From contig JAZDPV010000012.1 of the NCBI GenBank assembly GCA_043797265.1, forward strand, positions 13,875 through 77,874: a stretch of DNA of 64,000 nucleotides, given 5' to 3'. Source of the DNA: an archaeon (lineage in GTDB: Archaea; Nanobdellota; Nanobdellia; Pacearchaeales; GW2011-AR1). The position numbers and the translations under genes were made by a program. This document shows, piece after piece, positions 55,967-58,857 of this stretch; the stretch's first letter is position 1, and every line of letters starts with the position of its first letter. The notes beneath the pieces are model-generated. The model did not search any database. It was not told the DNA's origin and saw only the letters and a program-made list of their open reading frames with translations.

Positions 55967-58857
55967 ATGACATCAATCAATGAAACAGAAAAAGAAATTT
56001 TAACCTTCTGGAAAAAGGATAAGACATTTGAAAAATCACTAAAGAAAACCGAAAAAGGAAAACCCTATATCTTCTACGACGGCCCGCCATTCGCAACCGG
56101 TCTCCCGCACTACGGACACCTCCTCGCCTCGACGCTGAAAGACGTCTTCCCAAGATTCTTCACGATGCAAAGCAGATACGTCAAACGAAACTGGGGATGG
56201 GACTGCCACGGACTCCCCGTCGAATCCATCGCTGAAAAAGAACTCGGCATAAACTCAAAAAACGAAATCGAAAAAATGGGCGTCAAAAAATTCAACGACT
56301 TCTGCCGAACTAAAGTCCTAACCTACGCCGACGACTGGAAAAAATACATCGACAGAATCGGACGATGGGTCGACTTCGACGACGGCTACAAAACAATGGA
56401 CACCAACTACATCGAATCGGTCTGGTGGGCATTCAAGCAACTCTACGAAAAAGGATATTTATACGAAGGCGAAAAAATTCTGCTCTACTGCCCCCGATGT
56501 TCAACCCCGCTATCAAAATCCGAAATCGCAATGGACAACTCTTACAAAATAACAAAGGACACAACCGTCGTCGTAAAATTCCGCCTTCTGCCTACTTCTA
56601 GCGAAGCGGACTACCAGCGAAGCGGACTACCAGCGAAGCGGACTTAAATTTTTCCGAAGGAAAAACTTACGCCCTCGCTTGGACAACAACCCCATGGACA
56701 CTTCCCGGAAACCTCGCCCTCGCAGTCAATCCAAAAATGACATACGCATACATCAAAGACAAAAACGACGGCAACACCTATCTCCTCGCAAAAGAACTAA
56801 TACAAAAATTCTACAAATCCAAAGACGAATACACAATCACCAAAGAAATCAAAGGCAAAGAACTCGAAGGACAAAAATACGAACCACTCTACCCCTACTT
56901 CAAAGACAACCCAAACTCTTTCAAATTCCTGCTCGGAGATTTCGTAACAGCCGAAGACGGAACCGGAATCGTCCACGTATCTCCAATGTTCGGCGAAGAC
57001 GACAACACTATATGTCGAAAATATGAAATCCCCTTAGTAAACCCCGTCGACGAAAACGGGAACTTCACAAAACTCGTAACCGACTACGCAAACAAATACA
57101 TCCACGACACAAACGAGCAAATCGCAGCCGACCTCAAAAAAAATAACAAAGCAATCATGATAAAAAAAACGGAACACGAATACCCGTTCTGCTACCGATG
57201 CGACACAAAACTAATGTATCGCGCGCTCCCCGCTTGGTTCGTCGACATCCAAAAAATCAAAGACAAACTTCTAAAACTAAACCTCAAAATAAATTGGTTC
57301 CCAAAAAATCTCAAAGAAGGCCGAATGCAACACAACATATCAACCGCCCCCGACTGGAACATCACACGAAACAGATACTGGGCAACCGCAATCCCAATTT
57401 GGAAATCACCCTCGGGAAAAATAAAAGTTCTCGGCTCAATCAAAGAATTAGAAAAACTAACCCATAAAAAAATAACAGACTTGCATAAAGACACCTTGGA
57501 TAAAATAAAATTATTCCAAGACGGAGAAACCTACACAAGAATTCCCGAAGTCCTTGACTGCTGGTTCGAATCCGGCGCAATGACCTTCGCACAATTCCAT
57601 TATCCATTTGAAAACAAAAAATATTTCGACGAACACTTCCCGGCTCAATTTGTCGTCGAATACATCGCACAAACCCGAGCATGGTTCTACTATATGATCG
57701 TCCTCTCCGCAATCCTCTTCGACAAAATCCCTTTCGAAAACGTCCTGACAACCGGAACAATACTCGCGGAAGACGGACAAAAAATGTCAAAGTCCCTGAA
57801 AAATTACCCAGACCCTCTCGAAGTCATCAACAAATACGGGGCAGACACTCTGAGATTCTACCTCCTCCAATCTCCGCTAATGAACGCCGAAAACTTCAAC
57901 TTCTCGGAAAAAGGCCTCGACGAAACATACAAGCGAATCACAACCCTGCTCTACAACATCTCAAACTTCTATAAAGAATACCAGCAAGACGACGACAAAA
58001 ATTATCAAAAATCAGACAACCCAATGGACAAATGGATAATCTCACGAACCGAAAACCTAAACACAACCATCCAAAAAAACCTCGAAAAATACGACACAAT
58101 AAAAGCCTGCGCGCTCACAAAAAAATTCATAGACGACCTCTCGACATGGTACATCAGAAACTCCCGCGACAGATTCAACGACGACGACAAATCCGCAAGA
58201 AAAACATTAAGATACGTTCTTGAAAAAACAACAAAAATCCTCGCACCAATAATCCCATTCGCCACAGAAAAAATATACCAAGATATGAACGGCAAAAAAG
58301 AATCAGTCCACCTTCAAGACTACCCCAAGCCAAATCAAAAACTAATAAACAAAAACCTCGAACAAGAAATGGAAATCGCAAGAGAAATAGTTTCAATCGC
58401 GCTAAAAGAAAGAGACAAAGCCCAAATCGGAATCAAGTGGCCACTCGCAAAAGCGCAAATCAAGGCACCAATAAAATTGACAAAAGAGCTCGCAGAAATA
58501 ATAAAAAAAGAACTCAACATAAAAGAAATTGAAATTAAAAACTTCAAAACCAATGAAACAATAACCGCAATCCTCGACACAAAAATAACTCCCGAACTCG
58601 AAGCCGAAGGATTTGCAAGAGAAATCTCAAGAAAAATCCAGGCAGCGCGAAAAAAAGCAGGACTATCAAAACCCGATTCAATCGAACTCGAAATAATATC
58701 AGAGTTCAGCGACAAAATAAAATCGCAACTCGACTTCATTCAAGAAAGAGTCGGAGCAAAAACAATCTCCCTCGACAAATCCAACAAGAAATTTAATCAC
58801 TTTGAAGAAGGAAAAATAAAAGACAAACCCTTCACAATAAAATTCAACAAAATTTAA
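55967..58857 (+). pseudogene. ileS: isoleucyl-tRNA synthetase, reading frame broken as assembled by a 16-nt tandem repeat
   Basis: The upstream ORF has PPFATGLPHYGHLL (HIGH). The downstream frame has [21 protein letters not shown] before its first ATG, and KMSKSLKNY. The two frames differ by +2 across 56600-56645. Confidence 0.85.
56600..56645. repeat. AGCGAAGCGGACTACC x3 (last unit 14 nt) inside ileS
   Basis: Units lie at 56600-56615, 56616-56631 and 56632-45. Each contains GCGAAGC. Confidence 0.95.

What the first reader, a model, noticed from the sequence alone, without database searches (positions are those of the whole stretch)
56590..56740. ileS is frameshifted by a 16-nt tandem repeat, and one or four copies restore the frame
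The upstream ORF ends ...[26 protein letters not shown] at 56647. The conserved continuation [32 protein letters not shown] is open in a different frame, starting before the first ATG of the downstream ORF. Between them lies AGCGAAGCGGAC(TACC) in three copies. With one copy the gene reads ...[25 protein letters not shown] in frame. Each extra 16-nt unit shifts the frame by +1, so two or three copies break it. Four copies restore it and add 16 stop-free residues. A single-unit slip therefore switches an essential, normally single-copy aminoacyl-tRNA synthetase on or off. I see four possible explanations: repeat collapse in assembly, population heterogeneity, a true pseudogene with a second ileS elsewhere, or recoding.
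Basis: seen in the sequence. Interest (0 to 1): 0.75.

Follow-up and report, generated by a model that had tools for sequence, protein, structure and literature searches.

The report
Hairpin minisatellite frameshifts archaeal ileS
The only isoleucyl-tRNA synthetase gene of this tiny archaeon is interrupted by a 16-base hairpin repeat lodged in a surface loop; the assembly has three units, which breaks the frame, the closest relative has four units in frame, and the break is most likely a unit miscount or a slipped variant, not a dead gene or a switch.

Summary
AGCGAAGCGGACTACC ×2.8 (56600-56644) splits a single-copy ileS; one or four units restore the frame. The four-unit form exists: the closest relative (86% aa identity) has four perfect units read in frame. 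The unit is not native ileS sequence. About 62 nt (array plus hairpin) is an insertion relative to insert-free relatives. The same unit recurs at 8 loci in this 625-kb genome, always on the C-rich strand. One copy lies in frame inside gatD. Its core, GCGAAGC, is the known ultra-stable DNA mini-hairpin. Both ileS halves are under purifying selection (dN/dS 0.10 and 0.14), there is no second ileS, and at least ten other arrays with non-3n periods in real genes are in frame. So this is not a pseudogene, and the assembly does not generally miscount repeats. Best reading: the functional allele has four units, and three units reflect instability of a hairpin minisatellite, in the cell or during sequencing and assembly. 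Source reads were not available. Unresolved: two other lineages (G041; L038/L039) also carry out-of-frame arrays of this unit type in the same loop. They need different corrections, which argues against programmed recoding.

The parts
55967..56647 (+). ileS N-terminal piece (226 aa). It holds the HIGH-type motif HYGH, then runs through the array in frame 0 (..[16 protein letters not shown]) to a premature TAA.
   Evidence: NCBIfam TIGR00392 ileS profile positions 7-214, 255 bits
56591..56652 (+). About 62 nt that the closest insert-free relatives lack (they have only ~4 residues between VKFKLx and TYAIAWTTTPW). It holds the left spacer CCTACTTCT, the array and the start of the terminal hairpin. 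Boundaries are good to a few nt.
   Evidence: protein and DNA alignments; contigs of relatives in run X3 join across this stretch with 14 or 33 other letters
56600..56644 (+). Tandem array: two full units AGCGAAGCGGACTACC plus AGCGAAGCGGACT. Each unit contains the GCGAAGC mini-hairpin core. All three sense frames are free of stops.
   Evidence: mini-hairpin properties from PMC13037366
56645..56647 (+). Premature stop codon TAA of frame 0, directly after the array.
56649..56665 (+). Hairpin TTTTTCC-GAA-GGAAAAA directly 3' of the array, inside the codons for FSEGKT. A hairpin holds this place in every lineage with an insert, although its sequence differs.
   Evidence: window z -2.0; G041 11 bp; L017 10 bp, z -4.4; L038 7 bp GC-rich
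56602..58857 (+). ileS C-terminal frame (751 codons plus stop) with [9 protein letters not shown], KMSKS and the anticodon-binding domains. It has no ATG, GTG or TTG before 56737, so it cannot start upstream of the conserved WTTTPW strand.
   Evidence: NCBIfam ileS profile positions 222-851, 606 bits
46394..46476 (+). Intergenic sister array: ACTTCC-AGCGAAGCGG in three units (two adjacent, then one after a 7-nt gap), followed by an 11-bp AT-rich hairpin at 46452-46476.
   Evidence: z -2.7
62053..62160 (+). Intergenic composite: three different short hairpins, each framed by ACT(T/A)CC-AG...G(A/G). The last one is AGCGAAGCGG (core AGCGAAGCGGAC at 62114-62125). A 14-bp AT-rich hairpin at 62128-62160 closes it.
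   Evidence: z -4.05, 0 of 200 shuffles as stable

Best explanation
A small hairpin-repeat module, made of tandem 16-nt units (6-nt spacer ACTWCC plus AGCGAAGCGG) followed by a longer hairpin, has been inserted into a permissive surface loop of IleRS. The loop lies between the strand ...VKFRLL and the strand [10 protein letters not shown] that leads into the editing domain. The module is normally translated as part of the protein. Because 16 = 3x5+1, only 1, 4 or 7 units keep the frame, and the functional allele carries four units (61 nt, 16 extra residues). The three-unit version in this assembly is one unit short. It reflects unit-number instability of a perfect array of ultra-stable GCGAAGC mini-hairpins. 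The instability may be slippage in the cell, giving a non-functional variant sampled by the assembly, or polymerase or assembler miscounting during library preparation, sequencing and assembly. It is neither an old pseudogene nor a programmed switch. What is shown: the array and the frameshift, the insertion status, the multi-locus family, the four-unit in-frame relative, the absence of decay and the single gene copy. What is inferred: that the source organism's working allele has four units, and that instability, in vivo or in vitro, produced the three-unit count.
For: (1) The closest relative P0002/L016 (86% aa identity, same gene order) has four perfect units in frame, reading [41 protein letters not shown]. 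(2) In run X1, k=31 contigs nearly identical to the window (2 mismatches in 154 nt, 0 in 76 nt) enter the array from both sides, and two array-only pieces of 40 and 36 nt are present. A simulation reproduces exactly this break-up for at least 4 units and gives one unbroken unitig for 3 units. The depths 4:2:2 fit four units. (3) There is no decay: dN/dS is 0.10 and 0.14 for the two halves, against 0.05 and 0.29 for neighbouring genes, at dS about 0.57, and both halves are open with motifs intact. (4) There is one ileS only; the other class I hits are ValRS and LeuRS. (5) Such arrays are normally translated and kept in frame: gatD carries 4.5 units of the same repeat in frame. Its homologue on JGI contigs does the same. 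Seven arrays of period 7, 10 or 14 in GluRS, CTP synthase, Kae1, ProRS, ArgRS and ABCE1 within this window are all in frame, as are two more elsewhere in the genome. (6) The loop tolerates inserts: relatives carry 0 to about 31 extra residues of unrelated repeat-derived sequence there. The insert is modelled as unstructured, with pLDDT below 50, between two strands (the whole model is weak). (7) GCGAAGC is a documented extraordinarily stable DNA mini-hairpin (Tm about 76 C) that causes polymerase pausing and sequencing artefacts (PMC13037366). Tandem repeats are a known source of assembly error (PMC6868369).
Against: No reads of the source sample could be examined, so the three-unit count is not shown to be wrong or in the minority. 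The same assembly carries a 73-nt array of the same period intact in gatD, and all its other coding arrays are in frame, so it does not generally miscount repeats. Two further lineages have out-of-frame arrays of this unit type at the same ileS loop. One is G041, on a k127 contig with k-mer depth near 60, where a low-k collapse is implausible. The other is L038/L039. Three of four ileS arrays out of frame is more than occasional error predicts. The array-only pieces in X1 could come from another ACTACC-type array in that metagenome.
Confidence: 0.6

Rival explanations
1. The three-unit allele is the real, dominant allele and is rescued during translation. The ribosome hops between identical codons of successive units (GAC to GAC, 32 nt). 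Alternatively it takes off at ACU 56642 before the stop UAA and lands on ACU 56665 across the hairpin, giving ...AKRT-YALAW, as in T4 gene 60 and the mitochondrial byp elements.
For: The insert is GC-rich, hairpin-forming and repeated in an AT-rich genome, like the byps. The window has a matched take-off and landing triplet, a stop codon right after the take-off codon and a hairpin in the gap. Out-of-frame arrays recur in three lineages with single-copy ileS. The description of gene 60 and byps is taken from PMC8211752.
Against: The three out-of-frame cases need different corrections: -1 (equivalently +2) in the window and in L038, and +1 in G041. Only the window has a stop after the array; in G041 and L038 frame 0 runs on for 25-65 codons. 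The four-unit relative and the gatD arrays are plainly in frame, and all other coding arrays respect the frame, so these repeats are normally translated. Matched codons are an automatic consequence of any tandem repeat. The archaeal recoding review cites bypassing only for T4 gene 60 and yeast mitochondria (PMC8211752). No significant RNA structure, no bulge-helix-bulge motif and no Rfam match were found.
Confidence: 0.07
2. The out-of-frame allele is real and abundant in the population, and cells tolerate it without recoding. For example, polyploid cells could carry a mixture of array lengths, with the array mutating fast enough that out-of-frame copies are common. This would amount to a hypermutable, contingency-like locus in an essential gene.
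For: The units are perfect and hairpin-forming. Length and sequence differ between near-identical strains (the window's 3 units against X1's likely 4 with a variant first unit). ileS contigs often break at or near this loop in other assemblies, which suggests strain heterogeneity (L016 starts inside ileS, P0192's contig ends in the loop, L038/L039 end about 350 nt downstream). G041's out-of-frame array sits on a high-depth k127 contig.
Against: With only 3-4 units of 16 nt, slippage rates would have to be unusually high. A null allele of a single-copy aaRS is strongly counter-selected, and ploidy is unknown. Contingency loci are typically surface or restriction genes, not housekeeping enzymes (established knowledge). 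No read-level length distribution could be obtained.
Confidence: 0.2
3. This ileS is a true pseudogene, and a second functional IleRS lies in the unassembled 17% of the genome or is supplied by a host.
For: The genome is only 83% complete. DPANN archaea are often host-dependent (established knowledge).
Against: There are no other lesions, and dN/dS is 0.10-0.14. No second ileS was found in G000, in G041 or in any of the 30 relatives searched. A close relative has the same module in frame.
Confidence: 0.05

Closest known systems
Rickettsia palindromic elements (RPEs) and other MITE-like repeats inserted in frame into protein-coding genes
   Same: A short hairpin-forming repeat is present at many loci of a reduced genome, both intergenic and inside essential genes. 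There it sits in surface loops and is translated in frame (gatD, the ileS of L016).
   Different: The unit is only 16 nt and occurs as tandem arrays with a terminal hairpin, not as a single 100-150 bp element. No terminal inverted repeats or clear target duplications are seen, and the host is archaeal. The comparison with RPEs rests on my own knowledge; only located papers.
Slipped-strand mispairing at intragenic tandem repeats (bacterial contingency loci, phase variation)
   Same: The unit length is not a multiple of three, so gain or loss of one unit shifts the frame. Unit number differs between close strains.
   Different: The gene is an essential single-copy aaRS, the array has only 3-4 units, and no evidence of reversible on/off use could be obtained.
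d(GCGAAGC) mini-hairpin DNA (Hirao and colleagues; review PMC13037366)
   Same: The core of every unit is exactly GCGAAGC. The unit always lies on one strand, as expected if it acts in single-stranded DNA.
   Different: The known natural examples are single copies at phage and plasmid replication or priming sites and promoters, not tandem arrays inside genes.
Translational bypassing: T4 gene 60 and the byp elements of Magnusiomyces mitochondria
   Same: A GC-rich hairpin insert interrupts an essential gene of an AT-rich genome. In the window there are matched triplets on both sides and a stop after the possible take-off codon.
   Different: The signals are not conserved in the other out-of-frame lineages, an in-frame translated allele exists, and there is no peptide evidence.
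REP/BIME arrays and their RAYT (Y1/HUH) transposases
   Same: Short hairpins occur in intergenic clusters with strict strand orientation, and the genome has a single Y1 transposase without TnpB.
   Different: The Y1 gene is not flanked by these units. The units are much shorter than REPs and also lie inside genes.

Membership tests
Isoleucyl-tRNA synthetase (class Ia) | Match to the ileS equivalog profile over its full length, with HIGH and KMSKS motifs | tested here: met
   TIGR00392 covers profile positions 7-214 (255 bits) and 222-851 (606 bits) on the two pieces. HYGH and KMSKS are present. The gene is interrupted only at the array.
Pseudogene | Disrupted reading frame | tested here: met
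   The 32 extra nt lead to a premature TAA at 56645.
Pseudogene | Further lesions or relaxed selection | tested here: not met
   dN/dS is 0.10 (N half) and 0.14 (C half) against L016. Both halves are open.
Pseudogene | A functional copy elsewhere | tested here: not met
   The only other hits in G000 are ValRS and LeuRS. The genome is 83% complete, so absence is not proven.
Phase-variable contingency locus | Intragenic tandem repeat with a unit length that is not a multiple of 3 | tested here: met
   16-nt unit, 2.8 copies.
Phase-variable contingency locus | Both on and off lengths present within one population | not testable with these tools
   No run holds the organism at useful depth. k=31 contigs cannot separate a 3-unit allele from a 4-unit one.
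Phase-variable contingency locus | The gene is dispensable, so that the off state is viable | tested here: not met
   ileS is single-copy. That it is essential is established knowledge.
Programmed translational bypass (gene 60 / byp type) | Matched take-off and landing codons, with a stop or hungry codon after take-off and a hairpin | tested here: inconclusive
   These are present in the window (ACU-UAA...ACU across the hairpin at 56649-56665). They are absent in G041 and L038.
Programmed translational bypass (gene 60 / byp type) | One continuous protein made from the two frames | not testable with these tools
   This needs proteomics or expression of the gene.
In-frame hairpin repeat element (RPE-like) | Multi-copy in the genome, in both intergenic and coding places | tested here: met
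   There are 14 core copies at 8 loci, including ileS and gatD.
In-frame hairpin repeat element (RPE-like) | Insertions in genes preserve the frame | tested here: inconclusive
   In frame in gatD (G000, JGI contigs) and in the ileS of L016. Out of frame in the ileS of the window, G041 and L038/L039.
In-frame hairpin repeat element (RPE-like) | Independent insertions, showing mobility | tested here: inconclusive
   G041's nearest relatives lack the module, and G041 lies in a clade separate from the window's (quick tree, SH-aLRT only). Recombination is not excluded.

The most novel reading that the evidence does not exclude
The 16-nt mini-hairpin module is a strand-specific, hairpin-seeking mobile or self-expanding element that has entered the same IleRS loop more than once. 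Out-of-frame versions are the true dominant alleles in at least three species, because the cell decodes across them, for example by the ribosome re-pairing on the identical codon one or two units downstream. That would be the first translational bypassing in Archaea, and in a core housekeeping gene.
Probability: 0.07. Interest if true: 0.85.

Novelty: new variant of a known kind. Interest (0 to 1): 0.45.

Why it matters
For annotation, this ileS should not be called a pseudogene or counted as a missing aaRS. The break is a one-unit length difference in a repeat whose in-frame form is seen in a relative. More generally, this genus of very small DPANN-type archaea carries many short perfect tandem repeats inside core translation genes: IleRS, GluRS, ProRS, ArgRS, GatD, Kae1 and ABCE1 in or near this window. 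One class is built on the ultra-stable GCGAAGC DNA mini-hairpin. It is strictly strand-oriented in a genome with extreme strand asymmetry and appears to have entered the same IleRS loop twice. That makes it a natural system for studying how hairpin DNA seeds repeat expansion in reduced genomes and how essential enzymes absorb such inserts. If the recurrent out-of-frame state proved real, it would require a rescue mechanism not known in Archaea.

Tried and rejected
1. Read-level count of units. No public run holds this organism at useful depth (best share 0.14 for 701 nt, 0.12 for 10 kb), and no RNA holder was listed. The one read-laying run gave only low-depth k=31 contigs. None bridges the array, and a 3-unit allele has no k-mers of its own at k=31, so its presence or absence in X1 cannot be judged.
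2. Look-up of the window's own 706-aa product on other contigs found nothing on record.
3. Other array-associated frame breaks in G000. Every other candidate from the scan turned out to be one of three things: an array between two genes, an array read in frame by the real gene on the other strand, or spurious antisense ORFs of the G-poor strand.
4. Split-enzyme idea. There is no ATG, GTG or TTG in the downstream frame before 56737, and none in G041 or L038 upstream of the WTTTPW strand, so a two-piece IleRS would lack a conserved strand. Rejected.
5. Archaeal bulge-helix-bulge intron. The four bases after the GCGAAGC hairpin (GGAC) have no complementary partner upstream, and folding shows no such motif. 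Rejected.
6. Classical -1 or +1 slippery sites: none seen by eye at the required positions.
7. Known RNA families and tRNAs at the insert: none.
8. RAYT/IS200 link. A single Y1 transposase exists, with no TnpB, but it is not flanked by the units. Unsupported.
9. Truncated ileS fragments from the protein search. P0146 and P0153 (L041) are CPR-type genes with a single-base shift at a T5 run on a 'contig_N'-named assembly, probably a long-read homopolymer error. P0128 ends in the translation of an Illumina adapter. P0192 ends at a contig end. None is the same phenomenon.
10. L038 and L039 were first taken as two independent assemblies. They are 99.94% identical and count as one lineage.
11. A simple k-mer collapse explanation (a final k of 30-40 would give arrays of 40-45 nt in all three out-of-frame cases) fits numerically. 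It is contradicted by the 73-nt gatD array in the same assembly and by G041's k127 contig.
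Full report
THE OBSERVATION. The window carries AGCGAAGCGGACTACC in 2.8 perfect tandem copies at 56600-56644. An ORF of 226 aa (55967-56647) reads through the array as ...[26 protein letters not shown] and stops at TAA 56645-56647. The frame that carries [24 protein letters not shown]... 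is open from 56602 to 58857. It has no ATG, GTG or TTG before 56737. NCBIfam places the two pieces on adjacent parts of the ileS equivalog, profile positions 7-214 and 222-851. Deleting two units gives one 953-aa frame. Adding one unit also restores the frame. The repeat is not a chance feature: 4 matches to the 16-mer at up to 2 mismatches against 0.01 expected.

THE UNIT IS NOT NATIVE ileS SEQUENCE. The 12-nt core AGCGAAGCGGAC occurs 7 times in the window and 14 times in the 625-kb genome, at 8 loci. It always lies on the C-rich strand of a genome with very strong strand asymmetry (GC skew about ±0.4 on every contig).

Two window loci are intergenic (46394-46476 and 62053-62160). Several short hairpins sit there in a row, each framed by ACT(T/A)CC-AG...G(A/G), and a long AT-rich hairpin closes the row.

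A third locus lies inside gatD on contig C5. There 4.5 units (73 nt, ACTTCC spacer) are read in frame as ...[31 protein letters not shown].... The gatD homologue on two JGI metagenome contigs has 4.4 units with the ACTACC spacer at the same site, also in frame.

The core of the unit, GCGAAGC, is the extraordinarily stable DNA mini-hairpin. It has a Tm of about 76 C, survives 7 M urea, and is known to cause polymerase pausing and sequencing artefacts (PMC13037366). Nearest-neighbour folding does not capture this stability.

THE WHOLE BLOCK IS AN INSERTION IN A VARIABLE LOOP. The five closest genus representatives (74-77% identity) have intact ileS genes of 945-952 aa. They have only about four residues between VKFKLx and TYAIAWTTTPW, so even the one-unit reading has about 10 residues too many. 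Among 45 close homologues the loop holds from 0 to about 31 extra residues. Many of these come from other short repeats, for example GACAAGC x4 in P0003/L017, LPTTNYQLPT in P0004 and TKNQEPRTKN in P0014.

In every lineage with an insert, a hairpin follows the array, although its sequence differs. The examples are:
- Window: TTTTTCC-GAA-GGAAAAA.
- G041 and L017: AAATATTTCC-AAA-GGAAAT(A/G)TTT.
- L038: GGGCGAA-ACC-TTCGCCC.

An AlphaFold model of the four-unit relative places the insert (residues 166-191, pLDDT below 50) as an unstructured stretch between strands 151-162 and 194-200. The model as a whole is weak (mean pLDDT 64.8).

THE FOUR-UNIT ALLELE EXISTS. The closest relative found, P0002, has 86% identity and comes from NCBI MAG GCA_043799185.1 (contig JAZDNZ010000025.1, locus L016), with the same downstream genes. 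It has four perfect units at L016:499-559 in frame, reading [41 protein letters not shown]. The flanks are 88% identical to the window while the units are 100% identical. The unit sequence is thus held constant by something other than coding.

Run X1, a wastewater metagenome, contains k=31 contigs nearly identical to the window. One runs 39 nt into the array from the left. One starts exactly 30 nt (k-1) before the array's end. Two contain only array sequence (40 and 36 nt). A de Bruijn simulation gives exactly this pattern for an array of at least four units with a variant at base 9 of the first unit. Three units would give one unbroken unitig. The depths 4:2:2 fit four units. The caveat is that the array-only pieces could come from another ACTACC-type array in that metagenome.

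NOT A PSEUDOGENE, AND NOT A GENERALLY BAD ASSEMBLY. Against L016, dN/dS is 0.10 for the N half and 0.14 for the C half. The neighbouring genes give 0.05 (trmB) and 0.29 (argS), with dS about 0.57. The only other class I hits in G000 are ValRS and a bacterial-type LeuRS. None of the 30 relatives searched has two ileS genes.

Within this window, seven arrays of period 7, 10 or 14 lie in frame inside genes confirmed by Pfam: GluRS, CTP synthase, Kae1, ProRS, ArgRS and ABCE1. Elsewhere in the genome gatD, a 400-aa gene and a 2257-aa gene do the same. A genome-wide scan found no other gene broken at an array. Such repeats are therefore normally translated and kept in frame by selection, and this assembly normally counts them correctly.

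THE COMPLICATION. G041, another species of the genus, has the same array at the same loop: GAGCGGACTACC, AGCGAAGCGGACTACC, AGCGAAGCGGACT, then the hairpin. It is out of frame by one unit, and it would be in frame with one unit fewer, two more, or one base fewer in CCCTCCC. It is on contig JAUWIJ010000004.1, named k127 with cov 59.7. G041 has only this one ileS.

A further lineage, represented by two NCBI MAG contigs L038 and L039 that are 99.94% identical, has TCTCACAGCGAAGCGG x2 plus a 17-nt variant unit. It is also out of frame. So three of the four lineages with an array of this unit type in ileS are frameshifted.

On a quick maximum-likelihood tree, G041 falls in a well-supported clade. 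That clade includes an insert-free sequence (P0039) and one with an unrelated insert (P0044). It is separate from the clade of the window, P0002 and P0003. The module therefore entered this loop at least twice, or was moved by recombination. Across 401 genomes sampled from the order, arrays of GCGAAGCGG units occur only in this genus, in G000, G041 and G035. In G035 they are intergenic.

WEIGHING THE EXPLANATIONS. Programmed recoding is unattractive. The window and L038 need -1 (equivalently +2), while G041 needs +1. Only the window has a stop after the array, with the suggestive ACU-UAA...hairpin...ACU layout. No shared slippery site, bulge-helix-bulge motif, significant RNA fold or Rfam match was found. 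The archaeal recoding review cites bypassing only for T4 gene 60 and yeast mitochondria (PMC8211752). A split enzyme is excluded because the downstream frame has no start codon before the conserved WTTTPW strand.

What the out-of-frame cases share is the GCGAAGC mini-hairpin array. No array of another unit type is out of frame. The common cause is therefore most likely unit-number instability specific to this hairpin repeat. I cannot tell whether the instability arises in the cell or in vitro. In the cell it would be slippage, possibly with mixed lengths in a population or in polyploid cells. In vitro it would arise during PCR, sequencing or graph simplification.

A simple low-k collapse fits the array lengths numerically (40-45 nt in all three cases). 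It conflicts with the intact 73-nt gatD array and with G041's k127 contig. I therefore commit to the following: the functional allele has four units translated in frame, and the three-unit state is a length variant of technical or transient origin (0.6). A real, abundant out-of-frame allele tolerated without recoding gets 0.2, recoding 0.07 and pseudogene 0.05.

MECHANISM OF THE REPEAT ITSELF (inferred). The units always lie on one strand relative to the compositional skew. They sit immediately 5' of a larger hairpin. Each array has its own 6-nt spacer (ACTTCC, ACTACC, ACTATC, TCTCAC or TCTGCC). This pattern suits a process acting on single-stranded DNA at replication. One candidate is hairpin-promoted slippage or template switching. 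Another is repeated insertion of the 10-nt hairpin with a 6-nt duplication. A single Y1/HUH transposase is encoded (C18:86959-87294) but is not flanked by the units, so no enzyme can be assigned.

VERDICT. The feature is a new variant of known kinds: in-frame hairpin-repeat insertions and slipped-strand length variation. The frameshift itself is probably not biology the cell lives with. Interest is moderate (0.45). It rests mainly on the recurrent out-of-frame state in three lineages and on the unusual repeat family, not on the idea of an aaRS switch.

Noticed in passing
whole window and all 18 contigs of G000: The strand asymmetry is extreme: G is about 12% and C about 30% on one strand over whole contigs (GC skew about ±0.4, no sign change within 16 of the 17 contigs scanned). 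Genes lie on both strands, so protein composition depends on gene orientation. The G-poor strand carries long spurious antisense ORFs. L016 and G035 show the same skew. A CPR bacterium with a comparable strand disparity has been published (PMC7143001).
   Followed up: partly
G000:C5:15839-15911 (L021, gene at 15-1286 on the - strand): gatD carries 4.5 units of the same 16-nt repeat (ACTTCC spacer) in frame, just before the asparaginase-like domain (..[35 protein letters not shown]..). JGI contigs Ga0268277_1006960 and Ga0268278_1017225 have the ACTACC version at the same site.
   Followed up: yes
window 18407-18438, 26278-26306, 47395-47429, 52791-52824, 60604-60633, 62319-62345, 62760-62787: Perfect or near-perfect tandem arrays of period 7, 10 or 14 nt lie in frame inside GluRS, CTP synthase, Kae1, ProRS, ArgRS and ABCE1. 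Across the genome there are about 100 such arrays in 625 kb, and period 7 is the commonest.
   Followed up: partly
window 46394-46476 and 62053-62160; G000:C14:6180-6270 and C14:12370-12460: Intergenic composites of different short hairpins, each framed by ACTTCC-AG...GA. Two examples are GCATCGAC-AAA-GTCGATGC and GAAAAAATC-CTT-GATTTTTTC. They recur at several loci in the same order and end in a long AT-rich hairpin. They look like a REP/BIME-type family.
   Followed up: partly
G000:C18:86959-87294 (L043:1501-1836): A single IS200-type Y1/HUH transposase (PF01797, 81 bits; HVH motif) with no TnpB partner. It is flanked by its own small hairpins and lies in an AT-rich stretch with weaker skew.
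   Followed up: partly
G000:C1 (L003:955-3474, - strand): The LeuRS of this archaeon matches the bacterial-type model far better than the archaeal one (TIGR00396, 892 bits, against TIGR00395, 226 bits). This suggests a horizontally acquired leuS.
   Followed up: no
G000:C15:3982-4040 (L022): A variant array GCGAAGCGGTCTGCCA x3.4 lies within a 322-codon open frame (..[22 protein letters not shown]..) and is followed by a hairpin AAAAAATCCCTCAGGATTTTTT. Whether that frame is a real gene was not checked.
   Followed up: no
protein P0128 (ENA, 231 aa): This public ileS fragment ends in ...RSEEHTSELQSH, which looks like the translation of an Illumina adapter. It is probably a chimeric contig in the database rather than biology.
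   Followed up: no
L041:4074-4200 (ENA contig_66985): A CPR-type ileS is split at the same loop by a single-base shift at a T5 run. This is probably a long-read homopolymer error. The downstream piece also shows a His_Phos_1 domain hit inside tRNA-synt_1.
   Followed up: no
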